DNA of 64,000 nucleotides, taken from NCBI GenBank assembly GCA_964418185.1, contig CAYQKL010000003.1, positions 173-64,172 on the forward strand. Direction: 5' to 3'. This DNA comes from an uncultured bacterium (GTDB lineage Bacteria; Hydrothermota; Tepidihabitantia; SM23-42; JAOAFX01). Made by a program: the position numbers and the translations under genes. Below are positions 1,224-64,000 of this stretch, in pieces; the first letter of the stretch is position 1; each line of letters begins with the position of its first letter. The notes below the pieces were generated by a model. That model made no database searches and was not told where the DNA came from. It saw nothing but the letters and a program-made list of their open reading frames with translations.

Positions 1224-4200
1224 ATGAAATTCAGTGGGGTCTACTGGCTTGCAATACAGGACATAGGTGGTTTTACAAGCCTGAGTGAAGAACTTGCAAA
1301 GAGAGGGAAAAAAGGCACAGAAGAGTTGAGGCAAATAGTTGGAAAATTTTTTCAGGAAGCCGAAGCTAAGATATTAAATCTTTATGGAAGAATTTTTAAA
1401 CTGGCTGGAGATGCATATTATGCAATATTTCCTGCCTGTATCAGCACAAAAAAAATGGAAATACTGGGTAATGATCTTTTAAATTTAAAAAGTTTGAAAA
1501 AATATCATTTAAGGACAAGATTTATTGCAGTCCAGGGGAAAGTTGAAGCCGAATGGATACCCTTATCTGAAGGATATAATGATTTGCTTATCAGGGGACA
1601 GACGATATATGACCTTGATTTGTATGAAGAAAAGACTCCAGCCGGTAAAATTGCCGTATATGGTTCAGATAAATTTAAAACTTTTAGAATACCTGAATTC
1701 CCTTCTACCAAGAAGGTTATTCATTATAGTGCAGCACACAGACCACTTTATATAGCATTCCTTGAGATACCACAGGATTTTACCCTGGCGCATAAGATAA
1801 CCGGTTTTTTCCAGACCTATAAAGAAAATATTAAACTTATGAAATGGATTCCATATAAAAATAAATTCAAGGCACTGGTGATTGCTGGCTTTCCTGAATC
1901 CACGGGTAAAGAGGCACAAACTTGTCTTGAGACATTTTTCAAATTAAGGAAGGACTTTGAAAATTCCGAATTCAGAATGGGTATCTGTTCAGGCCTCGTA
2001 TTTGCCGGTGGAGTCAGAACAAAAAGATTTCAAGAATTTGCGATATTAGGCGACAGGGTAAATGTAGCCGCAAGACTTTGTGCTGCTGCATCCAGCAATG
2101 ATGTTTATATTTCAGGAGAGGTTCAGAAATTATTGACAGGTAAATTCAATTTCGCGGATATTGGAGCAATAAGACTCAAAGGCAAAGAAGAAAATATAAA
2201 GATATATAAACCACAGGAGAAAGTTCTGGATATCTTTAGCCCCCAATTATTTGTCCATCCCTTTGTTGGTCGTGAAAAAGAAATATATGATGCATTGAAT
2301 CTTGCAAAGAATAGAACGGGATTCTGTGTCATCGGTGATGCAGGTGTGGGTAAATCAAGAATGCTTTATGAGATAAAAAAGAGAATGGTTCAGAAAAATA
2401 TTATTGAAATAAGTCTACCACCAGTTTCGCCACCACTTTATTTTCTGAAGGATATCTTCAAATATTTTCCTCAAGGTGATTTTCCTGAACTAAGAAACTA
2501 TTTTGAAGGTATTATACAACTGCCGGTGATAAGAGTAGTGAAATTATTAAGTGACCTTTTTAAGACAAAGAATAAACTGACTATTTTCGCTGAAGACCTC
2601 CACTGGATTGATGAAGCATCCTTATTCTTATTAAAGGAATTGACTCCTCTGCCTTTTCAATTGATTGCCTCATCCAGACCCCAGGGTGAAAATATCGCAG
2701 ATAATCTAAAGTTAGAAAAAATTTATTTAAAAAATCTTTTGCCATCGTCATTAAAGATTCTTTTTGAGAAAATACACGGTGCACAACCAGATAATAAACT
2801 CTTGGATTTTCTAATAAAACACAGTGAGGGAAATCCATTCTATTTTGAGCAGATTTTGATTGACCTCCAGGAAAAGAATTTTATCAGGAAGGTCGGTGAC
2901 AGATTTTCTATTTCAGGAGATGCCCGTTCACTGCCCTTTAGTATCCATTCAATTTTGTTATCAAGATATGAGAGTTTACCACCTGAGGTGAAAAAACCGA
3001 CTGAAATTGCTGCCTGTATCGGGTTTGAATTTTCACCTGAGACAGTCAGAAAAGTCCTGGATTTTCCCTGTGTGAATTTTGAATCAACCTGCACAAAAGG
3101 AATAGTAATAAAGATTGGTCCAATATACCAGTTTAAACACGCGCTGTTTCGTGAAGCAATATTAAATTCAATACTTGAAATTAAACGCCGAGCCTATGAG
3201 CGAAAAATTGCTGAAGTCTTTATCAAAGAGGATAGAACTGACTTTGAAATTGCCCATCACCTTACTGAAGGCGGTGATGCATATCAGGCATTACCATATT
3301 GGTCCGCAACATTTGATGAACTATATTCCCGGGGCTTTCACAATGAGATCACAAATATCATCCAGAGACTGAATGGTTATGATGATGAGAATATAAAGAA
3401 GATAAGCTCGTTTATTAATGCATTGTATTTAATAAAGATGTCTGACTATTATGATGCAGAAAAGATTCTTTTGCAATTGAAAAATAATCCAAAAATTGAG
3501 AAATATATCCTGCTTAAACTTGCCGAGTTATACGACTGGAGTAGTCAATATAACAAGATGGAACAGGTACTTAAAATCTTGAAGAATCATAAAATGAATA
3601 TTGACGAAAAGATAACATACCTTGAACACTGTGGAATTTATTACGATATGACACGTAAAAATAGCAAGGCACTGGATTACTATAAAAAAGGTTTTATGAT
3701 TTCTCAAAAATTTCATCGGCGCGAGGCATTGACAACAAATCTGTATAATATCGGCTGGATTTATTTCAAAGAAAAAAAATATCACAAGGCGGAAATCTAT
3801 TTTCGCAAATCTCTTAATCTGGTCAAAGAAGGAGACTTGTTCAATGAAGGAACTGCTCTTTTGCGTCTTGGTCAGATTGAGATGCTAAAAGGAAATCTAT
3901 CTATTGCTCAAAACTATCTTAAAAGGAGTCTTAAAAGTTTTAAAACAATTGGGTTTGTTTATTGGGAGGGAATTGTTTTGAAGGCTCTGAGTGAACTGTA
4001 TGTTCTTTTGGGTAGAAAGAAAAAGGCGCTATGGTTTGCCCTTGAAGCTGATAAAACTGACCTGATGTTAAATGTTAAGCCAAAAAATTCCATTTTTTTG
4101 CATCTGTATTATGGTGATTTAGCCTTGGTCGAGAAAGCTTTAAAAGATAAGGAGGACAAATATATTGAGGAATACTTTCTTTATTTATTAGCACAGGGAA

Positions 4201-5747: not shown

Positions 5748-6409
5748 ATATCTTTCGTGTGTTTATTGAATCCGGGCTTGCTGCCCAGATTATTATGGTC
5801 ATACTTGTTGTATTCTCAATCTGGTCCTGGGCACTATTTTTCAAGAAATTGTATGAACTTGCAACTGCTAATAAACGGAGCAAGGCTTTCCTTATGAGTT
5901 ATAAATTCCACAAGAATATAAAAGAGATGGAGAATCTCGGACATTTATTACTTGATAACCCTTATGGCAGGATATTAAAAGATGGTTTTGATGAATTTAA
6001 ATCGCTAAAGTCTTCTTCAAAAAATCCAGTAAATCTCCAACTTGCTGAAAATATCAAACTCGCGATGGAGCGAACAAAGATAAAAGAGATAGAAACCCTT
6101 GAATCAGGTTTACCAATCCTGGGAACGATTGTTGCAGCAAGTCCGTTTTTAGGACTTCTGGGAACGGTATGGGGCATAATGGAATCATTTTTGCAGATTC
6201 GTGCAAGGGGTTCAGCCCATATTACAGTTGTGGCACCGGGTATTTCTGATGCCTTGATCACAACTGTGTATGGATTATTGGTCGCCATACCCGCATTGAT
6301 CTTTAACAACCTTTTGCGGAGTAGAATAATAAAATTAGATTCGCAACTTGATAATTTTATCAGTGAAATCTACGCTGGATTGAAAAGGGGATTGGTTGAA
6401 AACCAATAG
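5744..6409 (+). CDS. tolQ: MotA/TolQ/ExbB proton-channel protein
   Basis: Three TM segments and the conserved C-terminal region GLLGTVWGIMESF. Confidence 0.85.
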   Translation: MNIFRVFIESGLAAQIIMVILVVFSIWSWALFFKKLYELATANKRSKAFLMSYKFHKNIKEMENLGHLLLDNPYGRILKDGFDEFKSLKSSSKNPVNLQLAENIKLAMERTKIKEIETLESGLPILGTIVAASPFLGLLGTVWGIMESFLQIRARGSAHITVVAPGISDALITTVYGLLVAIPALIFNNLLRSRIIKLDSQLDNFISEIYAGLKRGLVENQ

Positions 6410-6803
6410 AAACACCGGTTTGATTCAGGATTTGAATTTCACAAATTTAGTAGATGTAGCACTGACAGTGCTCGTTGTCTTCATAATCACTGCACCTATG
6501 ATGACTCCGGGAATTGATGTAAATCTTCCCAGAACTGATGCTTCATTGCCTCATGACGAAGAAGGAATCACGATTTCAATAAAAGAAAACAAGCAATTAT
6601 TTATTGAAAGCGAGCAAGTCAAACCCAATGATTTTGAAAAAATATTAAAAAGAATCTTAGAAAAAAAACCACCAGGGGTCACGGTTTATCTCAGGGCAGA
6701 TAAAAGTATTGATTACGGATTTGTGATTGAAGTCGTGGGCAGAATGAGAAAAGCGGGGGTAAAGGATTTAGGACTGGTTGCAGAAATACCTCAGGAAGAA
6801 TGA
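6396..6803 (+). CDS. tolR: ExbD/TolR biopolymer transport protein
   Basis: Single TM, ExbD-like periplasmic domain, positioned after tolQ. Confidence 0.8.
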   Translation: MKTNRNTGLIQDLNFTNLVDVALTVLVVFIITAPMMTPGIDVNLPRTDASLPHDEEGITISIKENKQLFIESEQVKPNDFEKILKRILEKKPPGVTVYLRADKSIDYGFVIEVVGRMRKAGVKDLGLVAEIPQEE

Positions 6804-7447
6804 ACCGTTTTACCCTTTTTTCAATATTACTCCATCTTATGTTATTTGGAACAATCGCCCTTTCTTCAAAAAGTAGTTTTAAATCCATCCCTAAGTTTGA
6901 AGTATATAAGGTAAGTCTTGCACCCCTACCCCAACCAAAGATTGCTGGTATTCCTGAGGCACCCGTTGAACCAGCAGCGATAAAAGAACCTGAGAAGAAA
7001 ATTGAAGAAAAAAAACCACCCGAAGAGAAAAAATCCGTAGTGAAAAAAGAGAGTAGAGAAACCAAACAGACTAAAGAGATTAAACAAACCAAGGAGACCA
7101 AAAAGGGACTGCCTGACGGACTCCCTGATATCAGACCTCAAATCTATACAGGCAGTGGCCGGGGTTTTACATATTCATACTATCTAAACATTTTACTAAC
7201 CAAAATAGGCCAGAACTGGAATAATCCCTATCGAGAAAAGGATGTCATATTGAAATCAATAGTATATTTTGAAGTCAACAAAGATGGCGTAATCTCTAAT
7301 ATTCGCATTGAAGAAGATTCGGGAGATGACATTTATAATGAATCCACTATTCGCGCCGTTGCATTGGCAAAAAAACTTCCACCACTGCCCCACGAATTTT
7401 CTGATGATTATCTAAAGGTGCATTTAGAATTTCTCACTGCGAGATGA
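6800..7447 (+). CDS. tolA: TolA/TonB-family energy transducer (TM anchor, K/E/P-rich linker, TonB_C-like C-terminal domain)
   Basis: N-terminal TM segment, a KEPEKKIEEKKPPEEKK linker, a C-terminal TonB-like domain. Sits between tolR and tolB. Confidence 0.65.
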   Translation: MNRFTLFSILLHLMLFGTIALSSKSSFKSIPKFEVYKVSLAPLPQPKIAGIPEAPVEPAAIKEPEKKIEEKKPPEEKKSVVKKESRETKQTKEIKQTKETKKGLPDGLPDIRPQIYTGSGRGFTYSYYLNILLTKIGQNWNNPYREKDVILKSIVYFEVNKDGVISNIRIEEDSGDDIYNESTIRAVALAKKLPPLPHEFSDDYLKVHLEFLTAR

Positions 7448-8728: not shown

Positions 8729-9403
8729 TCAAAGCCACAGACCCAAAATATCTGCTGATAAGGCTACCAAAAAGTGTAGAATTGCACAGGGGAGAAAACT
8801 TCTTCCGCGAATTGCTATTATACCTAAAAAAATGCCCGCAAATATTGAACCGTATGCCTCAAGCAGTGGCTTGCGATAATGCATCAGGGCAAAGGGAATT
8901 GTTTGAATCAATATTGCAAGTCTTTTGTCAATTTTATTTGATAAGCCAAAAAGCATAAAACCCCGGAAAAAAAATTCCCAGGAAAACATATGAAACAATT
9001 GTATCATCTGGTAAATAACGAAATTATTGAATCCCTTTCGGGCTGTATAAGAAAGGGGATAAATAGATTTAAAGTTCGTAAATTTGAAGACAATCAATAA
9101 AATCACCAACATTACAAAAAAAATAATGAATAAGTCCTTCAGCCAGATTTTATATTCTCCAACTTTTAATCCATATTCTGCAGGTTTGTTTTTGAATAGA
9201 AGCATTGGAATAAATGGTGAAATTGCATAAATAATACCAAGCACAATCAATTTTTCGAAAAATGGTTCATTCGGAAAGAATAACTTTGTGCGTTTGAGAT
9301 ACAAAGAAAATAGTAGAATGAATGTGGCATAGCATACAATTACTAATATTTCTAAATCAATCTTTCTTATTTCTAAGATTATTTCACTTAGCCATTTTTT
9401 CAT
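8729..9403 (-). CDS. CPBP family intramembrane metalloprotease (CAAX protease/Abi-like)
   Basis: Motif 1 WEFFFRG (EExxxR type), motif 2 FALMHY, motif 3 ILHFLVAL. Multi-TM protein. Confidence 0.75.
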   Translation of the reverse strand: MKKWLSEIILEIRKIDLEILVIVCYATFILLFSLYLKRTKLFFPNEPFFEKLIVLGIIYAISPFIPMLLFKNKPAEYGLKVGEYKIWLKDLFIIFFVMLVILLIVFKFTNFKSIYPLSYTARKGFNNFVIYQMIQLFHMFSWEFFFRGFMLFGLSNKIDKRLAILIQTIPFALMHYRKPLLEAYGSIFAGIFLGIIAIRGRSFLPCAILHFLVALSADILGLWL

Positions 9404-20394: not shown

Positions 20395-20545
20395 GGAAGT
20401 GCCTCCTACAAAGCTCGTTAATCGTTGGACGGTGTCGCAGCCCGTATCGTCATACGTCAATGGTAATTCGAATATGATAGAGAAAAAAATCCCCTTTTGT
20501 CCCCGTTTTGGAGAGAGAGAGTAAGGGGGATTGGATTTATTGGAA
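20395..20545. repeat. Copy 1 of a ~100-150 bp interspersed/tandem repeat family
   Basis: Shares CCTCCTACAAA..CGTTAATCGTT..GGTGTCGCAGCCCGTA..AATTCGAAT with copy 2 directly downstream. Confidence 0.5.
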
Positions 20546-20549
20546 CTTG

Positions 20550-20700
20550 AAACCCTCCTACAAAAAATCGTTAATCGTTATGCGGTGTCACAGCCGTATA
20601 AAAATAAATCCGAAATTCGAATCCGCCATACTGGGTGGTGGACGAAATCCGAAACAAATTCAAATCCGCCACCCAGTTTGGCGGACTAAATGACAATTTC
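20550..20700. repeat. Copy 2 of the repeat family. Includes the stem-loop CCGCCAC-ccagttt-GGCGG followed by ACTAAAT.
   Basis: Tandem with copy 1. Its 3' half matches copy 3 at 39350-39440 (GGTGTCGCAGCCCGTA ... AATCCGCCAC..GTGGCGGACTAAAT). Confidence 0.5.
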
Positions 20701-55939: not shown

Positions 55940-56001
55940 GCTGAATTATATTTATAATCTCTGATTTGTCAATACATATAAGGTTTGTTTCTTTCTCCTT
56001 T

Positions 56002-57036
56002 TTACATATAGTTTTCAAGCAGTTTTTCCTTACAATGGATTGAATAATAATTCGGTGGAATCTCCAACATTGTGAACGCACCATATCTCTTTTCCTTATT
56101 CATTCTATAACAAGCCCTTGCACAGGCAATAAGGATACTCGCTGTTGCCCCAGGATTACTATCCCAGATACATCGATATTCGATTATTGCTTTACTATCC
56201 TTACCTGTCTTACCCGAAAGGATTACCGAGCCACAATGGGGAAACTCTTTGTGCCTTTTATTCAATACCCTTTCTGAAATAAATATCACCTTTGTATCAT
56301 AATCGGCAAAATAATTTGGCATCTCTTTTATCTCTTTCTCTATACTTTTTTTGTCCGCATCCTTATGGACAACAACATAAACGACCCTTTTATGCATCAT
56401 CCCTGGTTTCAAATCAGGATTTTCACCTTTTCTTACCCTTTCTACTGATTTTTTAATCGGTATCGTGTAAGAACGGGCATCAAGCACACCAGGTATCTGA
56501 CGGACTGCATCAGAATGTCCCTGGCTCACACCCGGTCCCCAGAATGTATAAATCCTCGCTTCAGGCACAAAGGAATCTGTTAGAACCCTTTCCAGTGAGA
56601 AGGTTCCTGGGTCCCAGCCTGCTGATATGATTGCAGTATGACGGTTTAGTTGTGCAACCTTTGCAATCTGATGATAGTAATCAAAGATACGTCTGTGTGT
56701 ATCAAAACTATCAACTGTGTTGAAAAATTGGGCAAAATATAGACCCTGGCCATGTGCATAAGGATCCGTAATGCGGACCCTGTCCAACTCTTTATTATTA
56801 GAAGTACCGAATATATCTTCCTTTGAACCCCCGCACAGAATTGCCACATCTGCAATGACTTCAAATTTTTCAAAAGAGAATACCGGAACATCATCTACAA
56901 TCTTCTTTACCGCCTCCGGTCTTCTGGTAATGATTTCTGCCAGTTCCATATCCGGATTTTTCTTAAGCGCAAGTTTTACACCTTTACCAAGATTTCCATA
57001 ACCTATAATTGCAATTCTTATTTTATTATTATTCAT
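56002..57036 (-). CDS. ddh: meso-Diaminopimelate D-dehydrogenase
   Basis: IAIIGYGNLGKGV, ISAGWDPGTFSLERV, TFWGPGVSQGHSDAVRQIPGV and GAFTMLEIPP align along the whole length of Corynebacterium Ddh. Confidence 0.8.
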   Translation of the reverse strand: MNNNKIRIAIIGYGNLGKGVKLALKKNPDMELAEIITRRPEAVKKIVDDVPVFSFEKFEVIADVAILCGGSKEDIFGTSNNKELDRVRITDPYAHGQGLYFAQFFNTVDSFDTHRRIFDYYHQIAKVAQLNRHTAIISAGWDPGTFSLERVLTDSFVPEARIYTFWGPGVSQGHSDAVRQIPGVLDARSYTIPIKKSVERVRKGENPDLKPGMMHKRVVYVVVHKDADKKSIEKEIKEMPNYFADYDTKVIFISERVLNKRHKEFPHCGSVILSGKTGKDSKAIIEYRCIWDSNPGATASILIACARACYRMNKEKRYGAFTMLEIPPNYYSIHCKEKLLENYM

Positions 57037-57037
57037 T

Positions 57038-58282
57038 CTACTCCTTTCTGAATAAATTTTTTATAAATTTATATGCCTTGAACTTATCCTGGGATTCAAC
57101 AAATACCATAATGTCAGTATGGACGGTCAAGATTTCCCAGATATTTATCTTTTCCTTTGCTATCGGCGTTACTATCTTCTTTATTGCACCTGGTTCATTG
57201 ATGAATTTTAAACTCCTAACCACAATTTTTGCAATCCCCTTTTTTAGATTTAATGCCTTAAGATTTTTAATTCTTGAAATCAGACTGGAAAGTAATTCGT
57301 AAGCTTTCTCTGACTTCTCTTCTTCCACATATATTGCAAGAAGATTATCTGAAATTGTGATTGAATGAATCGCAATCTTTTTTTCCGTAAGGACATTTGA
57401 TACATTGCTCAAAATGCCCGGTGTCTCTGGAATCTTTTCACCAATAAAAGTCAAAACCCCATAGGTCTTTTCGGAAAGATTGATAGAGATTTCTTTATCA
57501 AATATAATCTCGGTTCCACCATTCTCTATATTGGCACCATCATTTGCAATGACCCTTAATTTAGGGAGATTTCTTCTGTGTTTTAAAGATATTGGATTTA
57601 ATACCTGGGCACCGGATGCCGCAAGTGCACCAAGTTCTGACCAGGAGAGTTTCTTTATCAGCTTTGTATTCGATACAAACCTGGGATCTACGCTCAATAT
57701 ACCTCCTACATCTTTTACTAAAATCAATTCCTTTGCCCCTAATAACTCAGCGATGAGCAGTGCAGAAATATCACTTCCACCCCTACCCAGTGTTACGGTC
57801 CTGTTTCTTTCATCCTGGGCAATGAATCCAGGGATTATCAATACTGTATTTTTATTTAGCAGGGGGGTCAAATATCTGTGGACGATCTTTTTTCCTTTGG
57901 GCAGGAGGGTGAATTCCCTTTTCTCATTTATTTTTTGCGGACTGAGTTGTGCCTTTGATTTCAATCTTATATGTAATGGCCATTCAGGCACAGTAGGTAT
58001 TATCGCCTTTGCCTCAGCACCAAGGTATTTGAAAACCGATTCAAATATAATTGCTGACTGGATCTCACCCATTCCTACGAATTTTTCAAAAGAGTAGAAA
58101 TCGGGCTCAGGAATTGCTTTTGTAAAAAGATTTATTAATTCATCGGTCCTGCCTTTTATTGCCGAGGTGACGAGACAAACCCTTGTATCCTTGAATTTTA
58201 AAATCAACCGGGCAATTTTCAAAAAATCTTCTGCCTCAGAAAGGACCGAGCCTCCAACTTTAAATACCTTGATATTATTCAT
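57038..58282 (-). CDS. lysC: Aspartate kinase (amino-acid kinase domain + ACT domains)
   Basis: KVFKVGGSVL..., LGRGGSDISALLIAELLGA..., DVGGILSVDPR, and C-terminal ACT repeats. Sits between lysA and ddh. Confidence 0.75.
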   Translation of the reverse strand: MNNIKVFKVGGSVLSEAEDFLKIARLILKFKDTRVCLVTSAIKGRTDELINLFTKAIPEPDFYSFEKFVGMGEIQSAIIFESVFKYLGAEAKAIIPTVPEWPLHIRLKSKAQLSPQKINEKREFTLLPKGKKIVHRYLTPLLNKNTVLIIPGFIAQDERNRTVTLGRGGSDISALLIAELLGAKELILVKDVGGILSVDPRFVSNTKLIKKLSWSELGALAASGAQVLNPISLKHRRNLPKLRVIANDGANIENGGTEIIFDKEISINLSEKTYGVLTFIGEKIPETPGILSNVSNVLTEKKIAIHSITISDNLLAIYVEEEKSEKAYELLSSLISRIKNLKALNLKKGIAKIVVRSLKFINEPGAIKKIVTPIAKEKINIWEILTVHTDIMVFVESQDKFKAYKFIKNLFRKE

Positions 58283-59486
58283 CCTCTATCAACCTCCTTA
58301 ATGGTTGTTTTTTTCTAATCAAGCTCAATCTGCTGTCAATAAGATATTCTGCACAGAGAGGTCTGCCATTATAGGTTGAAGCCATTGTCCTTGTATAAGC
58401 ACCAGAATTGTGTATCAGAAGATAATCACCAATATCCAGTTCAGGAAGGTTGAACACGCCAAACTCATCGGCATTCTCGCACAATGGACCAGTGACCCTT
58501 ACCTTGAATCTCCTTCCATCTCTTTCAAATAAAGGTTCAATATGATGATAAGCATCATACAACGCAGGCCTTGGATTCTCAGTCATACCCGCATCAATCA
58601 TATAAATGGGCAGGTGATTCCTCTGTTTCCTGTCGATTATCCTTGTCAATATATACCCGGCATTTGCTACAAAAAACCTTCCTGGTTCAAGCAATATTTC
58701 TACATTGTATTTATCCTTCAATTTTTTATAACAATCAATTATGGGTCTGAAATTAAGTGGCTTTTCTATCGGTTCATAAGGAATACCAAATCCACCACCT
58801 AAATTTACTGTAGAAATGCCGAATCCATTTTTTCGGAAGAATTGAATCGCCTCAATGACCTTCTCGCTTGCATTAATAAATGGTTTTGGCGAGAGAATCT
58901 GTGAGCCAATATGGCAATGTATTCCAACCAATTCAGCATATCTGAATCTTTTTATGATTCTAATGACATCAGGAAGTTCCTGCATTCTTATTCCGAACTT
59001 ACTTACCTCTGAACCAGTGGAGAGATGGGGATGGGTCTTTGGAAATATACCTGGATTTATACGGGCGAAAGATTTTATTCTTTTACGCATTTTCTTTGCC
59101 ATTTGTTCAAGCAGAATCGCCTGATTTATACTCTCAAAATTGAAATACAAAACGCCCATTTTCAGGGCATAGCACACTTCATCATCCTTTCTCGCAACAT
59201 TGTTATAGAGTATCTCAGATCCATTCAAGCCTGCCTTGAGGCAGACAAATATCTCCCCCGGCGAAACAACCTCAGCACCAATGCCCTGCTTTTTTATCAA
59301 CTTCAAGATTGTCAGATTAGTATTCGCCTTGACCGCAAAGAAAAGTCGGGCAATACCATAAAAATTTTTCTTTAAAATTTCAATATTCTCTGATAATCCT
59401 GCCTTTTCATAGATATAGCAGGGAGTTTCAATTTCGTTACCTGAGCGGAGATAATCTCTTAATATCGCCAACCATTTCTGCCCCAT
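58275..59486 (-). CDS. lysA: Diaminopimelate decarboxylase
   Basis: PLP-site FFAVKANTN, GGGFGIPY, EPGRFFVANAG. The start is set at the ATG at 59486, which is preceded by AAGGAGG. The ORF-track TTG at 59504 lies inside the RBS. Confidence 0.85.
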   Translation of the reverse strand: MGQKWLAILRDYLRSGNEIETPCYIYEKAGLSENIEILKKNFYGIARLFFAVKANTNLTILKLIKKQGIGAEVVSPGEIFVCLKAGLNGSEILYNNVARKDDEVCYALKMGVLYFNFESINQAILLEQMAKKMRKRIKSFARINPGIFPKTHPHLSTGSEVSKFGIRMQELPDVIRIIKRFRYAELVGIHCHIGSQILSPKPFINASEKVIEAIQFFRKNGFGISTVNLGGGFGIPYEPIEKPLNFRPIIDCYKKLKDKYNVEILLEPGRFFVANAGYILTRIIDRKQRNHLPIYMIDAGMTENPRPALYDAYHHIEPLFERDGRRFKVRVTGPLCENADEFGVFNLPELDIGDYLLIHNSGAYTRTMASTYNGRPLCAEYLIDSRLSLIRKKQPLRRLIEDE

Positions 59487-59508
59487 TAAACCTCCTTTAT
59501 TCAACCAA

Positions 59509-59621
59509 TAAAAAAGCCCACCTTCTGGTGGGCTTTTCGTCTATTAAATGACTATTCATAGGAACGAAAAGCCCATTCCCCTTATATGCTTCTTCATCCA
59601 GTATCTCTTAAAAAGTTTCAT
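59509..59621 (-). promoter_or_regulatory. lysA leader: a 21-codon leader ORF plus terminator/antiterminator alternative structures (attenuator-like)
   Basis: Terminator AAGCCCACC-agaa-GGTGGGCTT followed by UUUU, 25 nt before the lysA RBS. An upstream segment AATGGGCTTTTCG (complement at 59565-59576) can pair with the 5' arm of the terminator. The leader ORF MKLFKRYWMKKHIRGMGFSFL (59621-59556) overlaps that segment. Confidence 0.4.
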
Positions 59622-59692
59622 AGACTTGAGTATATCCAAAAAAAGAAAAGTGTCAAGAGTTGACATAAAGGGAATTTTAAATAAACTTTGTC

Positions 59693-61762
59693 GTGCATAA
59701 AATTCTATGGTTCCTTTCTATAATTCCCTTTATGCTCTCGGCACGTGAATGGACTGTAATGGTATATATGGCTGCAGACAATTCATTGAGTGCGCTTGCT
59801 GATTCTGACCTCATTGAGATGAAGGCAATTGGTTCTAATGACAATCTTGCAATCTTTATCCAGGTTGACAGACCAGGTATTGGTGCAAATCGTTATTATG
59901 TAGGAAAAGATACACTATATAAAATTTCAGATATGGGGATCATTGATATGTGTGACTGGCGAACCCTCAGTGATTTTATTGAATCTGGTATCACATACTT
60001 TCCCGCAAGAAGATATTTTCTTATTCTCTGGGATCATGGCACAGGCTGGACCCTTTCACCAAGACGCACATTTGGCAGTGACTGGTCAAGCGGCACAGAA
60101 ATGAGTATTGCCAGTGGCGACCTTAATCGTGCATTGAAAAGTTCTTTTGATGCTACAGGAAAGAAATTGCATATCATCGGTTTTGATGCCTGCAATATGC
60201 AGCAGATTGAAGTCGCCAGTGAAATTGAGAATTATGCAATGGTTTGTATTGCCCCCCAGACAGTCTGGCCCATTAAAGGATATCCTTACGAAAATATTTT
60301 CTATACATTCAGAATCAATCCAGGGATTAACGAAAAAGACCTTGCAAAAAAAATTACCGAGATTTGTAAAGATTACTATTCAATAAGTCAGGCTTCAGCA
60401 ATTTCGGCAATCCATCTTGAAGATTTCAAAAATCTTGAAGAATTGTTAGAGAAAAACCTCAGCGAAATTATGCAAAATTACCCACAATCAGAGATTATTG
60501 ATTTAAGAAATCAGGTGCAGACGGTTTCACTGATAGACCCTGTGCCTGCACCTGAAGATGATTATGTAGACCTCGGTGATTTTCTGCGATTGCTGAATGA
60601 CCATCTTTCAACAAAAGATACAAAGGAACTTATAGATTCTTATAATAAAACAGTCCTCAAATCAGAATCCTGGGGAACCGGCCTAACAGGATTGACTGGC
60701 ATCACAACCTGGTTTCCAGACCGATATATTGAATTTAAAAATCTTGTGGATTATTATCTACAATTGGACTATGCCCAATCAAACTGGCAGACCTTTCTAA
60801 ACTGGTTCTATGACCAGGATGATATCAGACCAACCACATCACAAATCAATGTAGGCACTCCTGGTAAAGATAACGACTTCCATCTCTTCTGGACAAAATC
60901 CTTTGACCTTGCTTTAGTTCTTTATGACATCTTAGAATGCACCGACACACTTCTATTATTCCAGGATGGTTGTGAGGATTCGGCAAACTGGTTATTCAAT
61001 GGATTTTCCCTGGTTAAAAACATCGCATACCAGGGCAATGGTTCTTTCTTCTCAGGAAACAGCAGCAATCTACAAAATTCTTTAATCACAAAAAACAATT
61101 TCAAAATTGATAACCTTGGTCTGCTTGATTTCTATATCTATTACAATACTGAAGATATGGCAGACTCCCTGATAATTGAATATGATACTAAAAAATCTAT
61201 CTACTATGGCAGATCAGGCACCTGGCAACACTGCCGGATTATTTTACCATCAGGCAATGCCCCGTTGAAAATCTATTATCATACAAATACCAGTATAAAT
61301 AATGGTGGTGCATATATAGATGCGATAAAATTATACAATCTGATTTCAGGAAAATATGTCCGCAAAGGTTGTCCTGATACCACAATCTATGTGTTCAATA
61401 AATTGAGCGGGTTTTATAATTATGGCGTGTGTGCCCGGGATATCTATAACAACGAAAGCAATCTATCAAATTTTGTGAACATTGTTATAAGTAACCATGC
61501 AGTTCCTTATTCTATACCCAATCCATTCACTGAGACCTGTGAGATAATCCTTGACTATCCTGACGATATAAGTCCTGAAGTTTACATCTATTCAATCGGT
61601 GGCAGACTCGTAAGAAAATTCTCTTATTCAGCAATAAAGAACAAAAAAATCTTCTGGGATGGAAAGGATAATAACAACCAGCAGGTTGGTGCTGGTCTAT
61701 ATTTTGTTGTTGTTAAAGGCAAAAATTTTAACATAATTGGAAAGATAGCGAGGCAGAGATGA
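59693..61762 (+). CDS. Secreted clostripain-family (C11) cysteine peptidase with a T9SS C-terminal sorting domain
   Basis: Signal peptide. WTVMVYMAADNSL, catalytic His in LILWDHGTGW and Cys in IIGFDACNMQ. C-terminal CTD IYSIGGRLVRKF...WDGKDNNNQQVGAGLYFVVVKG. Confidence 0.7.
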   Translation: MHKILWFLSIIPFMLSAREWTVMVYMAADNSLSALADSDLIEMKAIGSNDNLAIFIQVDRPGIGANRYYVGKDTLYKISDMGIIDMCDWRTLSDFIESGITYFPARRYFLILWDHGTGWTLSPRRTFGSDWSSGTEMSIASGDLNRALKSSFDATGKKLHIIGFDACNMQQIEVASEIENYAMVCIAPQTVWPIKGYPYENIFYTFRINPGINEKDLAKKITEICKDYYSISQASAISAIHLEDFKNLEELLEKNLSEIMQNYPQSEIIDLRNQVQTVSLIDPVPAPEDDYVDLGDFLRLLNDHLSTKDTKELIDSYNKTVLKSESWGTGLTGLTGITTWFPDRYIEFKNLVDYYLQLDYAQSNWQTFLNWFYDQDDIRPTTSQINVGTPGKDNDFHLFWTKSFDLALVLYDILECTDTLLLFQDGCEDSANWLFNGFSLVKNIAYQGNGSFFSGNSSNLQNSLITKNNFKIDNLGLLDFYIYYNTEDMADSLIIEYDTKKSIYYGRSGTWQHCRIILPSGNAPLKIYYHTNTSINNGGAYIDAIKLYNLISGKYVRKGCPDTTIYVFNKLSGFYNYGVCARDIYNNESNLSNFVNIVISNHAVPYSIPNPFTETCEIILDYPDDISPEVYIYSIGGRLVRKFSYSAIKNKKIFWDGKDNNNQQVGAGLYFVVVKGKNFNIIGKIARQR

Positions 61763-62637
61763 AAAATCTTGTAATAATTGCAAATGGGGGTGCTGGTGGC
61801 ATAAATTTTCCCCACCGCCGTGCCCAGGGTTTAAAAAAGGCACTAAATATTGGCTATGAGATATTAAAAAATGGTGGTTCAAGTATTGATGCAGTTGAGC
61901 AAGCAATAATGGTCCTTGAGGATACTACAATCTTCAATGCCGGTACTGGCTCCACGCTCGGTCTGACCGGTGAGGTAGAGATGGATGCATCGATAATGAC
62001 TGCGGATGGAAATTATGGGGCAGTCGCTGCAATAAAGAATGTAAGATATCCAATTCAGATTGCACGATTAGTGATGGAAAAGACCGACCATCTCTTATTA
62101 TGTGGTGATGGCGCATTGAGATTTGCAAGGCTCTGTGGCATAAAATACCATAATCCCAAGACGAAAGAAAAGATCAGGATGTGGCAAATGGCAAGAAAAA
62201 GATTGAAGAATGATTACTTTCCAAAACTCTATAAGTTGAAAGAACTTTATGAGACTGTTGGTGTTGTAGCAATGGATAAAGATGGTTCCATAACTGCAGG
62301 GACTTCTACTGGTGGTATCTCACTCCATTTACCAGGCAGGGTTGGTGATACTCCCATCATCGGTGCAGGGACCTATGCGAACAAATACGGTGGTGTATCA
62401 ACCACAGGCCATGGTGAGTTGATTATGAAGACATTGCTTGCCTTCAGAACTGTAGCGTATATGGAAAGATACTCAGCACCGGTTGCGGGCAAGATGGCGA
62501 TAGACTATGCAACAAGGGCAAAATGCCGGTCTGGAATAATCGGTATTGACCGTGAGGGTAGAATATTATGTGTCAATAACACCGAGGCGATGTCCTGGTG
62601 CTACATAAAGAATGGCACTATGAAATCATTTTATTAA
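61759..62637 (+). CDS. Isoaspartyl peptidase / plant-type L-asparaginase (Ntn hydrolase)
   Basis: FNAGTGS. Autoproteolytic site and Thr nucleophile in DKDGSITAGTSTGG...TVGVVAMD. Confidence 0.8.
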   Translation: MKNLVIIANGGAGGINFPHRRAQGLKKALNIGYEILKNGGSSIDAVEQAIMVLEDTTIFNAGTGSTLGLTGEVEMDASIMTADGNYGAVAAIKNVRYPIQIARLVMEKTDHLLLCGDGALRFARLCGIKYHNPKTKEKIRMWQMARKRLKNDYFPKLYKLKELYETVGVVAMDKDGSITAGTSTGGISLHLPGRVGDTPIIGAGTYANKYGGVSTTGHGELIMKTLLAFRTVAYMERYSAPVAGKMAIDYATRAKCRSGIIGIDREGRILCVNNTEAMSWCYIKNGTMKSFY

Positions 62638-62844
62638 AACTTACTACGAAAATTTTTGTTACAGAAAATTTGTGCATTACCTGCTGAAAATTAATTTTTG
62701 TCAGTCTTGACACCTTACAAAATTCGGGTAGAATTACACTGGCAGAGGATAGTGTGAAGACAAATTCTAAATTCAAAATCCGAAACAATATCAAATATCT
62801 AATACCTCAAACCCAAAACATTTTGAAAATTGTGATTTTGAATT

Positions 62845-63012
62845 TATGATTTATTTAGGATTTAGATATTCGAATTTCGGATTTAATCAAATTACTGGTG
62901 CATATTATCCATTTGGTGAGATGATCACTGGCTCAGGTGATGTGCACGGGTTTACAGGAAAGGAACTTGATGAAACAGAATTGAATTATGCCGTTTTTTT
63001 CCTATTGTTATG
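62845..63012 (+). pseudogene. Decayed remnant of an Rhs/YD-repeat core C-terminus
   Basis: AYYPFGEMITGSGDVHGFTGKELDETELNY resembles the Rhs core end (...a.G....RFTGKELDEETGLYYFGARYYDP). The RYYDP part is recoverable only by shifting frame at a T7 run. No upstream Rhs body is present. Confidence 0.4.
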
Positions 63013-63179
63013 ACTACTAAAAAAATAAGGAAACGAAGAACCGCTCTCTGCGGGATTTATTTCATCGTTACTACGACCTGCAAATTTGTAAAATATATAT
63101 CATTTTAAGCATTTTGCCCCACCTCCACTTGTTGTGGACTTTTATTATAAAACATATATAATGTAATTAGAGGTGATTT

Positions 63180-63389
63180 ATGAAAAGTGTAACTGCTATA
63201 ATTCATAAGGGTGAAAAATTTTTCATTGGTGAATGTTTAGAAGTGGATATAATTACCCTGGGTAATACCATTGATGAAATTTTGTCAAATTTAAAAGAGG
63301 CGATTGCTTTGTATTTTGAAAATGAGGATATAGAAAAGCTGTCGTTGCCTAAAGAACCGGCAATAGCAGTTCCAATTGTTGTTGAATAA
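63180..63389 (+). CDS. hicB: HicB-family antitoxin (RNase H-like fold, UPF0150)
   Basis: AIIHKGEKFFIGECLEVDIITLGNTIDEILSNLKEAIALYFE matches the HicB N-terminal-domain pattern (...G.Y.a.vPdlpGc.t.GdT.eEal.n.kEAi.lyle). Confidence 0.65.
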   Translation: MKSVTAIIHKGEKFFIGECLEVDIITLGNTIDEILSNLKEAIALYFENEDIEKLSLPKEPAIAVPIVVE

Positions 63390-63392
63390 TCA

Positions 63393-63592
63393 ATGCCTGA
63401 ATTACCAATTGTTTCTTAAAGGAAATTGGCTATGAAATAGTTAGCCAAAAGGGTAGTCATGTTAAGTTGCGTAAATTCTATCGTGAAGATAAACATATAA
63501 TTGTCGTCCCTTTACATAAAGAATTAGACCGTGACCTTAATGAGTATTATAAGAAGGGTAAGAGTATACTTTCCACAGAACGAATTTCTTAA
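63393..63592 (+). pseudogene. hicA: HicA-family mRNA-interferase toxin, frameshifted after codon 8
   Basis: MPELPIVS* in one frame (cf. HicA N-terminus MPKLPvvSG), then ...FLKEIGYEIVSQKGSHVKLRKF...HIIVVPLHKELDRD in the -1 frame (HicA core GfelvRqkGSH). The break is at the TTT/AAA runs around 63414-63420. Confidence 0.55.
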
Positions 63593-64000
63593 GATATTAA
63601 AAGAAAAATAAAATCCTAAAAGAAATATATGACAAAGAATCACTCTAACTTTCCACTTTCTACTTATTAAGGTTGCTTCTGCCAGCGTGACATTGAAATA
63701 CTCTTAATGATTGGGTTATTTCTAATTGCAATGTTTCTTGGAGTAAAATTACATTATTGGCATCAGAAAAATCCGCTTTTGGTTAATATTTAGATTTATC
63801 TTTTTTGTTTGATTATTGCTATTGCGGGATTATTGATTGCCATTTTAGGGATAGCAAATGTTTTCCGTAAAAGAAATAATAAACCAAATGAAAAGAAAAT
63901 ATGAAAACCGTGCGAATTAGTGATGAAATCCTTTTATCCATTTGAGTTCGAAAAATATCTCATCTTGAATATCATAATAATAGTAGGTATCGTAATTCGG

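What the first reader, a model, noticed from the sequence alone, without database searches (positions are those of the whole stretch)
62640..64000. Decayed polymorphic-toxin/TA islet: Rhs core remnant, hicB, frameshifted hicA and small hydrophobic peptides
Downstream of the isoaspartyl peptidase the content changes abruptly. First comes a 56-codon ORF whose product (AYYPFGEMITGSGDVHGFTGKELDETEL...) is recognisably the C-terminal end of an Rhs/YD-repeat core (FTGKELDEETGLYYFGARYYDP). It has no Rhs body, and the RYYDP part survives only across a T7 frameshift. Then comes an intact HicB antitoxin. After it, a HicA toxin starts correctly (MPELPIVS) but shifts -1 after codon 8. Two 29-31-aa hydrophobic peptides with basic tails follow, up to the window edge. 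This resembles an orphan Rhs-CT/immunity module in which the toxin partner is decaying while the antitoxin or immunity gene is retained. The boundary of the island lies beyond the window.
Basis: partly seen in the sequence, partly recalled or inferred. Interest (0 to 1): 0.5.

Follow-up and report, generated by a model that had tools for sequence, protein, structure and literature searches.

The report
Decayed Rhs toxin array with hicBA
This 2.7-kb stretch is the worn-down remains of a bacterial "weapon store" (Rhs toxin and immunity cassettes plus a HicA/HicB toxin-antitoxin pair); every toxin and immunity gene is broken and only the small HicB antitoxin gene is still whole, so it is an ordinary case of gene decay.

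Summary

**Rhs fragment.** It fails the Rhs HMMs. However, it is 88% (nt) and 91% (aa) identical to true Rhs core ends in a relative whose locus shares the downstream flank (L004).

**Anatomy.**
- Module A, an orphan Rhs pseudogene: promoter-like site 62707-62734, GTG at 62754, a 7-bp slippage frameshift, truncated after 62989, and a YF..RYYD relic at 63054-63085.
- hicBA cassette, 63134-63628: hicB is intact (HicB fold, but Q27L at an otherwise invariant column). hicA is killed by a 22-bp and a 2-bp deletion.
- Module B, 63629-63691: an orphan leader with a TAT>TAA nonsense change, fused to the next gene.
- Immunity-like gene 1, 63692-63904: in L004 this is an 81-aa, two-hydrophobic-segment protein directly after an Rhs C-terminal domain. 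Here it lacks 11 codons and is split by a TAG.
- A second, truncated paralog starts at 63920.

**Extent.** The islet ends at about 65,330 with no integrase. A relative has an empty site and another has about 29 kb of Rhs loci there. Three assemblies agree base for base.

**Side result.** All five contexts examined for this hicB clade lie within about 1.5 kb of orphan Rhs modules.

The parts
62707..62734 (+). Promoter-like site TTGACA-16-TAGAAT at the 5' edge of orphan Rhs module A.
   Evidence: It matches 11 of 12 consensus positions and is the best of the sites found in 62500-64000. However, the total number of sites is no higher than in shuffles. The same cassette (TTGACA..AAAATTCGGGTAGAAT) is conserved upstream of intact orphan Rhs ORFs (L094 1441, L004 5795). 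It also lies inside two long Rhs ORFs of L004. Promoter function is inferred, not shown.
62754..62989 (+). Orphan Rhs module A, pseudogene. It has a GTG start, then the leader (VKTNSKFKI / NPKQYQISN...), then the first ~31 codons of the RHS-associated core end (GAYYPFGEM...DETELNY). A 7-bp deletion of one AAATCCG unit near 62776-62783 shifts the frame. Homology stops after 62989, so the rest of the core, the C-terminal toxin domain and its immunity gene are gone.
   Evidence: Window 62707-62972 is 78.7% identical over 291 nt to L094 1453-1737 (E 5e-70). Alignment A3 compares it with the intact orphan ORFs L094 1500-2525 and L096 1680-2759, which score 69-70 bits on TIGR03696. Window 62895-62989 is 88% identical to L004 core ends.
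62846..63013 (+). It is the out-of-frame tail of module A plus 8 unrelated codons.
   Evidence: No Pfam hit. TIGR03696 scores 14.1 bits (E 0.05) for the 34-aa core piece.
63054..63085 (+). Short relic of the next part of the Rhs core (YF..RYYD..QI). It is in a different frame and separated from module A by about 65 nt of unmatched sequence.
   Evidence: It matches the L008 orphan (TATTTCTGCCAGCGTTACTACGACCCCCAAAT) at 25 of 31 positions. The score is 32 against a shuffle mean of 14.9 (sd 2.0), with 0 of 500 shuffles as good. Stitching it onto the core piece raises TIGR03696 from 14.1 to 24.5 bits. That stitch was chosen by eye.
63135..63162 (+). hicBA promoter-like site TGGACT-16-TATAAT. It marks the left end of the hicBA cassette, whose homology to relatives starts at 63134. 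A terminator-like hairpin at 63124-63138 overlaps its 5' end.
   Evidence: It is conserved as TTGACT...TATAAT in L008, L011, L013 and L006 (alignment A1).
63180..63389 (+). hicB: an intact 69-codon ORF for a single-domain HicB-type antitoxin with no DNA-binding domain. It carries Q27L at a column that is Q in all 9 relatives compared.
   Evidence: It is 97% identical to P0002, which sits 3 nt upstream of an intact 80-aa HicA (PF07927). The AlphaFold2 model has pLDDT 79.7. The top Foldseek PDB matches are 2yzt, 3k6q (antitoxin) and 6g1n (HicB), at probability 0.97-1.00. The profile search against PDB gives 2yzt at E 9e-5. Pfam PF15919 scores only 15 bits against a cut-off of 27. Q27L is seen. 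Against L008 there are 6 synonymous and 2 non-synonymous codon differences.
63393..63611 (+). hicA pseudogene. A 22-bp deletion after codon 8 creates a TAA stop at 63417-63419. A 2-bp (GG) deletion near 63533 follows. The segment carrying the KGSH motif is out of frame and has no usable start codon.
   Evidence: Alignment A1 against the intact hicA of L008, L011, L013 and L006. The conceptual repair scores 36.9 bits on PF07927, and the middle frame alone 34.5 bits, against a cut-off of 27. The 22-bp deletion site is covered identically by three other assemblies, and the 2-bp site by two.
63629..63691 (+). Orphan Rhs module B stub: MTKNHSNFPLSTY*GCFCQR. This is the orphan leader plus the first core codons (YFCQR), with a TAT>TAA nonsense change at 63668-63670. 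A deletion removed the rest of the core and the toxin domain, and joined the stub in frame to the immunity-like gene.
   Evidence: Window 63134-63691 is 91% identical to L008 1709-2288. There the ORF continues as MTKNHSNFPLPTYYGYFCQRYYDPQIGRF...NNPLKYIDPLGL, which scores 52.8 bits on TIGR03696.
63692..63904 (+). Immunity-like gene 1, pseudogene. It is the homolog of an 81-aa protein with two hydrophobic segments. It lacks the first 11 codons and has a TTG>TAG change at 63791-63793.
   Evidence: It is 90% identical over 216 nt to L004 6759-6974 (E 2e-80). The L004 gene starts 8 nt after an Rhs C-terminal ORF, and a paralog follows the same toxin type a second time in L004. All three stop codons are in normal use (TAA 18, TGA 18, TAG 8), so there is no recoding.
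63920..64000 (+). Immunity-like gene 2, truncated paralog. It continues to window-equivalent 64108 on L001. Its first ~46 codons match a 75-aa L004 protein. The second hydrophobic segment is replaced by unrelated sequence.
   Evidence: Window 63916-64056 is 90% identical to L004 9054-9194 (E 1e-50). The alignment and hydropathy show only one hydrophobic segment left. The sequence beyond the window comes from L001.

Best explanation
The region is the non-functional relic of an Rhs polymorphic-toxin 'orphan module' array that carried an embedded hicBA addiction cassette. It sits between two convergent housekeeping genes, the isoaspartyl peptidase gene and a DUF362 gene.

**How such arrays work (established knowledge).** New C-terminal toxin/immunity modules displace old ones at the conserved Rhs core end. 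The displaced modules stay downstream as orphans. Each orphan is a stub of core, a toxin domain and an immunity gene.

**What is shown here, by comparison with intact relatives.**
- Module A keeps its upstream promoter-like site, start codon, leader and about 31 core codons. It is frameshifted by slippage in an AAATCCG repeat and truncated before the toxin domain.
- Module B is reduced to 21 codons with a nonsense mutation.
- Its deletion runs into the immunity-like gene, which also carries a TAG.
- A second immunity-like paralog has lost its second hydrophobic segment.
- hicA is destroyed by 22-bp and 2-bp deletions.
- No full-length rhs gene is present in the window.

**What is inferred.**
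- The lineage once had a larger Rhs island at this site, as a close relative still does (about 29 kb), and lost it by successive deletions.
- Once hicA was dead, hicB lost its job. It is probably still transcribed from its own promoter, but it is drifting (Q27L).
- Nothing in the islet can now make or deliver a toxin.
For: **True homology of every piece to intact genes.**
- Rhs pieces match at 84-93% nt. The partner ORFs pass TIGR03696 and PF03527.
- Immunity-like genes match at 90% nt.
- The hicBA cassette is 91% identical to L008, which has an intact 80-aa HicA.

**Lesions defined base by base.** See alignments A1 and A3.

**Insertion and decay at a variable site.**
- L019 has the two flanking genes about 10 nt apart.
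- The relative that yields L097 and L004 has about 29 kb of Rhs loci between the same flanks.
- L014 and L015 have a different, minus-strand Rhs locus there.

**Extent and composition.**
- The remaining 62.6 kb of the window has no other Rhs sequence.
- There is no integrase or further cassette between 64000 and the DUF362 gene.
- The in-window part of the islet has 30.9% G+C against 37.9% for the window.

**Not an assembly artefact.** Two further assemblies are identical over 62000-64000 and a third over 62452-63428.

**Stop codons are real stops.** All three are in normal use.

**Recurrent decay of the same cassette.** L094-L096 carry a 59-aa truncated HicB and no hicA.
Against: - The Rhs fragment itself does not pass any Rhs HMM threshold. 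Its assignment rests on homology to relatives.
- 'Immunity' is a positional inference. The gene lies directly after an Rhs C-terminal domain, twice in L004. The small membrane proteins match no known family.
- The direction of change is not proven. The window lineage may have lost a big island, or the relatives may have built one up.
- hicB shows 6 synonymous and 2 non-synonymous codon differences from L008. This is compatible with continued purifying selection, so it may still have a function.
- No expression or read-level data are available.
- The three extra assemblies come from closely numbered sequencing runs and may sample one population.
Confidence: 0.85

Rival explanations
1. hicB is kept by selection as a stand-alone ('orphan') antitoxin. 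It would neutralise HicA toxins encoded elsewhere in the genome or arriving on incoming cassettes (anti-addiction). On this view the islet is not wholly dead. This can be true together with the main explanation.
For: hicB is the only ORF of the islet left intact. It keeps a conserved promoter-like site and ribosome-binding site. Its codon differences from L008 are mostly synonymous, 6 against 2. The same cassette clade occurs in several arrays of related bacteria, so cognate HicA toxins do circulate.
Against: Q27L replaces a residue that is invariant in 9 relatives. No second hicA is present in the 64-kb window. In L094-L096 the same hicB is itself truncated once hicA is gone, which points to loss rather than retention. 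The few substitutions may simply mean that hicA died recently.
Confidence: 0.2
2. The small hydrophobic ORFs (28, 31 and 62 aa) are working genes in their own right, for example membrane-active peptides or type I-like toxins, rather than fragments.
For: Each has a start codon and a hydrophobic segment with a basic tail. Weak sub-threshold similarities to holin-like or Hok-type models were seen for the L004 homologs.
Against: The 28-aa and 31-aa ORFs are collinear, in one frame. Together they are 90% nt identical to a single intact 81-aa gene of L004 and differ by a TTG>TAG change. The 62-aa ORF matches the first 46 codons of an intact 75-aa paralog and then diverges. All family hits are far below threshold.
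Confidence: 0.05
3. The frameshifts and stops are sequencing or assembly errors, and the locus is really a functional hicBA pair beside live orphan modules.
For: Homopolymers and short repeats are error-prone, for example the T7 run and the AAATCCG repeat.
Against: Separate assemblies from three runs (SRR10095340, SRR10095342 and SRR10095362) agree base for base wherever they overlap the window. The lesions include a 22-bp deletion, nonsense substitutions and kilobase-scale deletions. These are not homopolymer errors.
Confidence: 0.03

Closest known systems
Orphan Rhs-CT/immunity modules downstream of rhs genes. They are produced by C-terminal displacement and are known from Enterobacteriaceae, e.g. 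Salmonella Typhimurium rhs-orphan (PMC3150448, PMC7043789).
   Same: A stub of the conserved core end without the YD-repeat shell. It has its own upstream promoter-like site, which parallels the internal promoters shown for Salmonella rhs in PMC7043789. A small gene follows directly in the intact relatives. Modules are arranged in tandem.
   Different: Here the toxin domains are deleted and the immunity-like genes are pseudogenes. No full-length rhs gene precedes the array in this genome. The host appears to be a WOR-3 bacterium, inferred from the names of near-identical flanking proteins. The orphan modules carry conserved leaders (VKTNSKFKIRNPKQ... or M.KNHSNFPLPTYYG) that I did not find described.
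HicAB type II toxin-antitoxin systems (HicA PF07927; HicB, e.g. PDB 6g1n and 6hpb).
   Same: Gene order is hicB then hicA, 3 nt apart, with its own promoter-like site. HicA has the KGSH motif segment. HicB has the fold of the HicB N-terminal domain.
   Different: HicB is a 69-aa single-domain form, closest to Thermus TTHA1756 (2yzt). It lacks the C-terminal DNA-binding domain of the characterised HicBs. HicA is a pseudogene.
Orphan antitoxins and decaying chromosomal TA loci, as surveyed for example in Klebsiella (PMC7192599; title and abstract only were read).
   Same: The toxin gene is inactivated while the antitoxin ORF persists.
   Different: Here the cassette is embedded in a polymorphic-toxin array that is decaying along with it.
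TA cassettes inside chromosomal super-integron arrays, proposed to stabilise the arrays against deletion (from my own knowledge; not checked in the library).
   Same: Addiction modules are interspersed among tandem, individually promoted cassettes. In L004, L011 and L094-L096 several TA pairs (PIN, DUF4258/DUF2283, DUF433/DUF5615, hicBA) sit between orphan Rhs modules.
   Different: No integrase or attC sites are present. The cassettes are Rhs orphan modules. A stabilising role is untested.

Membership tests
Rhs / YD-repeat protein | YD/RHS repeat shell (PF05593, TIGR01643) | tested here: not met
   No Pfam or NCBIfam repeat hit in the islet. tblastn with YD-repeat ORFs of L015 finds nothing in the window.
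Rhs / YD-repeat protein | RHS repeat-associated core domain (TIGR03696) or PF03527 above the curated cut-off | tested here: not met
   The fragment alone scores 14.1 bits (E 0.05) against a cut-off of 32.5 and covers profile positions 1-32 of 76. A hand-stitched version scores 24.5 bits. PF03527 and PF05593 give no hit.
Rhs / YD-repeat protein | Direct homology to true Rhs core ends | tested here: met
   88% nt (E 1e-25 to 1e-27) and 91% aa over 32 residues to L004 ORFs. Those ORFs score 61-70 bits on TIGR03696 and 34-40 bits on PF03527. Also 78.7% over 291 nt to the L094 orphan ORF, which scores 69 bits.
Rhs / YD-repeat protein | Core-terminal PxxxxDPxGL motif followed by a variable C-terminal toxin domain | tested here: not met
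   Homology ends after ...DETELNY at 62989. Relatives continue with ...NNPLKYxDPxG plus a toxin domain. Only a YF..RYYD..QI relic remains.
Orphan Rhs-CT/immunity module | Core-end stub without shell, with its own start, lying in a tandem array | tested here: met
   There are two stubs, 62754-62989 and 63629-63691. Both are collinear with the 5' ends of intact orphan ORFs in L094, L096 and L008.
Orphan Rhs-CT/immunity module | Toxin domain with a cognate immunity gene immediately downstream | tested here: not met
   Both toxin domains are deleted. The immunity-like genes survive only as pseudogenes. Immunity function itself cannot be tested with these tools.
Orphan Rhs-CT/immunity module | Location downstream of a full-length rhs gene | tested here: not met
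   The isoaspartyl peptidase gene ends at 62637, directly upstream. The relative L004 has long Rhs ORFs upstream of the homologous modules.
HicA toxin (PF07927) | Pfam match above the gathering score | tested here: met
   36.9 bits for the conceptual repair and 34.5 bits for the middle frame alone, against a cut-off of 27.
HicA toxin (PF07927) | Intact reading frame | tested here: not met
   22-bp and 2-bp deletions relative to four intact relatives, with a stop at 63417-63419.
HicB antitoxin | Pfam HicB-like model (PF15919) above the gathering score | tested here: not met
   15 bits (E 0.029) against a cut-off of 27. All 10 clade members match only weakly, best E 0.008.
HicB antitoxin | HicB N-terminal-domain fold | tested here: met
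   The model has pLDDT 79.7. The top PDB matches are 2yzt (TM 0.68), 3k6q (antitoxin) and 6g1n/6g1c (HicB), at probability 0.82-1.00. E-values are modest (3e-3 to 0.3) for this small protein. The profile search against PDB gives 2yzt at E 9e-5.
HicB antitoxin | Operon with hicA | tested here: met
   Relatives 84-97% identical sit directly upstream of a called HicA (PF07927) gene: 3 nt upstream of an 80-aa HicA in L008-L011 and L013, and about 55 nt upstream of a 62-aa HicA call in L006.
HicB antitoxin | C-terminal DNA-binding (RHH/HTH) domain, as in the characterised HicBs | tested here: not met
   The protein is 69 aa with three strands and one helix only. It is a single-domain form like TTHA1756.

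The most novel reading that the evidence does not exclude
In this WOR-3-related group, type II TA cassettes may be regular, co-inherited parts of Rhs orphan-module arrays rather than chance neighbours. These cassettes include this hicBA clade, and also the PIN, DUF4258/DUF2283 and DUF433/DUF5615 pairs.

Observations that fit this reading:
- The hicBA cassette and the start of the following orphan module form one conserved unit (91% nt identity) in otherwise different surroundings.
- All five contexts examined for this hicB clade have orphan Rhs core ends within about 1.5 kb.
- The same promoter-like cassette (TTGACA..AAAATTCGGGTAGAAT) precedes orphan modules and one TA pair, and lies inside long Rhs ORFs.

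The TA pairs would act as addiction modules that protect the silent toxin/immunity store against deletion. The window would then show what follows when hicA fails: the array collapses.
Probability: 0.3. Interest if true: 0.45.

Novelty: new member of a known kind. Interest (0 to 1): 0.25.

Why it matters
In itself it matters little. It is a pseudogene graveyard of two well-known system types, and its annotation should read 'Rhs orphan-module remnants, hicB, hicA pseudogene'.

It has three modest uses:
1. It is a worked example showing that very short Rhs relics fail the family HMMs yet can be assigned with confidence by synteny.
2. It marks the peptidase/DUF362 junction as a variable site for Rhs islands in this lineage, with states of 0, 2.7 and about 29 kb.
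3. It points to a recurrent link between TA cassettes and Rhs orphan arrays. These share a promoter-like cassette that may parallel the internal rhs promoters shown in Salmonella. A systematic survey could test this link.

Tried and rejected
- **Pfam and NCBIfam scans of the raw Rhs ORF.** No Pfam hit and only a sub-threshold TIGR03696 hit.
- **phmmer of the ORF against PDB.** Nothing.
- **The search for homologous proteins with the 55-aa ORF.** It found only itself, because the word index is too insensitive for a 32-residue relic.
Rejected, because it loses even the weak HMM hit.
- **My first reading of 62707-62751 as only a promoter, and of 62754-62895 as an AT-rich palindromic repeat.** Revised. 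The stretch is the conserved upstream region and leader of orphan Rhs ORFs. Its fold is not unusual, z = -1.4.
- **Rfam on the islet and its continuation.** No match at E <= 1.
- **Stop-codon recoding as an explanation for the in-frame TAG and TAA.** Rejected, because all three stop codons are in normal use.
- **Search for homologs of the two ORFs beyond the window (136 and 164 aa).** No family hit and no homolog in any fetched locus.
- **Not used.** The exhaustive representative search and the third word-indexed protein search, because the questions were settled by synteny.
Full report
**1. What is in the sequence**

The isoaspartyl peptidase gene (61759-62637; PF01112, 283.7 bits) ends at 62637. 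The G+C content falls from 37.9% for the window to 30.9% for 62638-64000.

- a 55-aa ORF at 62846-63013 containing GAYYPFGEMITGSGDVHGFTGKELDETELNY;
- a 69-aa ORF at 63180-63389;
- a short MPELPIVS* ORF starting at 63393;
- hydrophobic ORFs of 28 aa (63707-63793) and 31 aa (63809-63904);
- a further hydrophobic ORF from 63920 that runs off the window edge.

**2. Sequence beyond the window, and reproducibility**

Exact-protein look-ups found the same locus on three other assemblies: L001, L002 and L003, from runs SRR10095342, SRR10095340 and SRR10095362. L001 and L002 are 100% identical to the window over 62000-64000. L003 is identical over 62452-63428. The disruptions described below are therefore not artefacts of one assembly.

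L001 continues past the window end.
- The third hydrophobic ORF ends at window-equivalent 64108.
- Two ORFs of 136 and 164 aa follow. They match no family.
- At about 65,330 the minus-strand housekeeping block begins: DUF362, KsgA-type methyltransferase, TatD and MetRS.
- There is no integrase and no further toxin cassette.

**3.

| Query | Model | Result |
|---|---|---|
| Rhs ORF | PF05593, PF03527 | no hit at E <= 10 |
| 34-aa core piece | TIGR03696 | 14.1 bits, E 0.05 (cut-off 32.5) |
| Repaired HicA | PF07927 | 36.9 bits (cut-off 27) |
| HicA middle frame alone | PF07927 | 34.5 bits (cut-off 27) |
| HicB | PF15919 | 15 bits (cut-off 27) |

On HMMs alone the Rhs claim would have failed.

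**4. Homology to intact relatives settles the Rhs claim**

A genome-collection scan with the ORF found L004, from the MAG contig DAIRCK010000005.1. L004 shares the downstream DUF362-KsgA-TatD block at 78% nt identity. It carries three ORFs with true Rhs core ends, scoring 61-70 bits on TIGR03696 and 34-40 bits on PF03527.

Matches between the window and L004:

| Window | L004 | Identity | Content |
|---|---|---|---|
| 62707-62751 | 500-544, 3621-3665, 5807-5835 | 84-93% | upstream cassette |
| 62895-62989 | three core ends | 88%, E 1e-25 to 1e-27 | Rhs core end |
| 63644-63674 | 5902-5932 | 84% | orphan leader |
| 63692-63907 | 6759-6974 | 90% | 81-aa gene |
| 63916-64056 | 9054-9194 | 90% | 75-aa gene |

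At protein level the core piece is 91% identical over 32 residues (E 9e-14).

Loci reached through HicB relatives gave intact orphan Rhs ORFs with the same 5' end as the window. These are L094 1500-2525 and L096 1680-2759, scoring 69-70 bits on TIGR03696. Window 62707-62972 is 78.7% identical to L094 over 291 nt (E 5e-70).

**5. Anatomy and lesions**

*Module A* (alignment A3)
- A promoter-like site TTGACA-16-TAGAAT lies at 62707-62734, matching 11 of 12 positions.
- The conserved GTG start is at 62754, followed by the leader VKTNSKFKI.
- One unit of a tandem AAATCCG repeat is missing near 62776-62783. This shifts the frame.
- Homology stops at 62989.
- A 31-nt relic of the next core stretch (YF..RYYD..QI) lies at 63054-63085. 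It matches the L008 orphan at 25 of 31 positions, and 0 of 500 shuffles scored as well.
- That relic is in another frame with stops in between, so the 'T7 frameshift' account is only loosely right.

*hicBA cassette, 63134-63628* (91% identical to L008)
- The promoter-like site is TGGACT-16-TATAAT at 63135-63162.
- hicB is intact and 97% identical to the L008 protein.
- hicA has a 22-bp deletion after codon 8, which creates the stop at 63417-63419.
- hicA also has a 2-bp deletion near 63533.
- The two deletions together put the KGSH-containing segment out of frame, with no usable start (alignment A1).

*Module B, 63629-63691*
- It reads MTKNHSNFPLSTY*GCFCQR, against L008 MTKNHSNFPLPTYYGYFCQRYYDPQIGRF... 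(52.8 bits on TIGR03696).
- It has a TAT>TAA change at 63668-63670.
- At 63691/63692 a deletion joins it in frame to codon 12 of the next gene.

*Immunity-like gene 1, 63692-63904*
- It is the homolog of the 81-aa L004 protein, which starts 8 nt after an Rhs C-terminal ORF.
- It carries a TTG>TAG change at 63791-63793.

*Immunity-like gene 2, 63920 to window-equivalent 64108*
- It matches the first 46 codons of a 75-aa L004 paralog.
- It has lost the second hydrophobic segment.

*Why 'immunity-like'.* In L004 the same toxin type is followed twice by a member of this family of small proteins with two hydrophobic segments. This is the only basis for the label. The family matches nothing in Pfam or NCBIfam.

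*Stop codons.* TAA, TGA and TAG are all in normal use in the window (18, 18 and 8), so the in-frame stops are real.

**6. HicB identity**

Thirteen relatives were found. One is annotated by NCBI as a HicB family antitoxin of a WOR-3 bacterium.
- In L008-L010, L011 and L013 the gene lies 3 nt upstream of an intact 80-aa HicA (PF07927).
- In L006 a 62-aa HicA call begins about 55 nt downstream.
- A profile of the clade hits Thermus TTHA1756 (2yzt) at E 9e-5 and HicB chains at E about 0.2.
- An AlphaFold2 model (pLDDT 79.7, three strands and one helix) finds 2yzt, the 3k6q antitoxin and B. pseudomallei HicB 6g1n/6g1c as the top PDB matches.

It is therefore a single-domain HicB without a DNA-binding domain.

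The window copy has L at position 27, where all nine relatives compared have Q. Against L008 it shows 6 synonymous and 2 non-synonymous codon differences.

**7. Genomic setting**

A metagenome scan with the peptidase gave relatives in three states.
- *Empty site.* In L019 (81% aa identity) the peptidase stop and the DUF362 stop are about 10 nt apart.
- *Different Rhs locus.* In L014 and L015 (96-97% aa identity; named WOR-3 in UniRef) a different, minus-strand Rhs locus follows the peptidase.
- *Large island.* L097 carries the peptidase at contig positions 30,463-31,341, with 86-88% nt identity in the flank that ends exactly at the stop codon. L004 carries DUF362 at about position 60,300. This implies about 29 kb of Rhs loci between the same two genes.

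The two loci do not overlap.

The window's 2.7 kb is thus an insertion at a variable site. It corresponds to the DUF362-proximal end of a large island.

**8. Interpretation**

This is a decayed Rhs orphan-module array with an embedded hicBA cassette.
- The toxin parts are gone (both Rhs C-terminal domains) or broken (HicA).
- The immunity-like genes are broken too.
- Only hicB is intact, and it shows a first suspicious substitution.

Orphan modules and their internal promoters are known from Enterobacteriaceae (PMC3150448, PMC7043789). The reductive direction of change is inferred from the number of independent deletion scars. It is not proven.

**9. Side result**

All five contexts examined for this hicB clade lie in Rhs orphan arrays: the window, L006/L007, L008-L010, L011-L013 and L094-L096.
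- Homology between the window and L008 runs uninterrupted from the hicB promoter into the next orphan module.
- In L094-L096 hicB is truncated to 59 aa and hicA is absent.
- Other TA pairs sit in the same arrays.
- The conserved TTGACA..AAAATTCGGGTAGAAT cassette precedes orphan modules and a DUF4258/DUF2283 pair. It also lies inside long Rhs ORFs.

This suggests, but does not show, that TA cassettes are regular components of these arrays.

**10. Verdict**

The finding is ordinary gene decay of two known kinds of system. Interest is low to moderate (0.25).

Noticed in passing
window 62707-62734; L004 488-560, 3609-3680 and 5795-5850; L094 1441 and 6931; L095 4293; L096 941: A promoter-like cassette TTGACAcyttrmAAAATTCGGGTAGAAT recurs in several places. 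It lies at the 5' edge of orphan Rhs modules. It lies inside two long Rhs ORFs, where it reads LDIDTLKNSGRITLPED. It also lies in front of a DUF4258/DUF2283 TA pair. It may be an internal or cassette promoter, as shown for Salmonella rhs (PMC7043789), or a preferred recombination endpoint.
   Followed up: partly
L097 (contig positions 20463-41341) and L004 (51013-63108), both from a 122,258-nt contig; L019 10873-10903: The junction between the isoaspartyl peptidase and DUF362 genes is a variable site. It holds about 10 nt in L019, 2.7 kb in the window, and about 29 kb in one relative. That relative has two Rhs loci on opposite strands and a secretin gene there.
   Followed up: partly
L094 6001-6763; L095 3363-4125; L096 11-773: In three further contigs the same hicB is truncated to 59 aa (C-terminus replaced by SLNNKI). 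hicA is absent and replaced by 137-aa and 47-aa membrane ORFs. This is an independent decay of the same cassette.
   Followed up: partly
window 20395-20700, and window-equivalent 64086-64110 (L001 12328-12352): An intergenic region carries short repeats: cctacaaa..cgttaatcgtt twice, and runs of aaatccgaaa / attcgaat. One more copy of the first motif lies, reversed, about 30 nt after the point where immunity-like gene 2 loses homology to L004. The aaatccg motif is also the slippage repeat in the leader of module A.
   Followed up: no
L001 12586-12996 and 13006-13500 (window-equivalent 64344-64754 and 64764-65258): Two ORFs (136 aa with a hydrophobic segment; 164 aa with a lipoprotein-like signal ...LILTC) fill the rest of the islet. 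They have no Pfam or NCBIfam hit and no homolog in any fetched locus, including L004.
   Followed up: partly
window 59693-61762: A clostripain-type C11 peptidase with a T9SS C-terminal sorting domain (PF03415, 135.8 bits; TIGR04183, 24.2 bits) overlaps the start of the isoaspartyl peptidase gene by 4 nt. The pair is conserved in relatives.
   Followed up: no
window 56001-62637 against L097; window-equivalent 65331-68131 against L004: Identity to the same relative is uneven. It is 86-88% nt in the upstream housekeeping genes, 78% in the downstream ones, and 84-93% in the Rhs and immunity-like relics. This would fit exchange of island sequence between lineages.
   Followed up: no
L015 14305-18052 (minus strand): The Rhs gene next to the peptidase in the closest named WOR-3 relative is split into at least five ORFs. 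It is either a pseudogene or an error-rich assembly.
   Followed up: no
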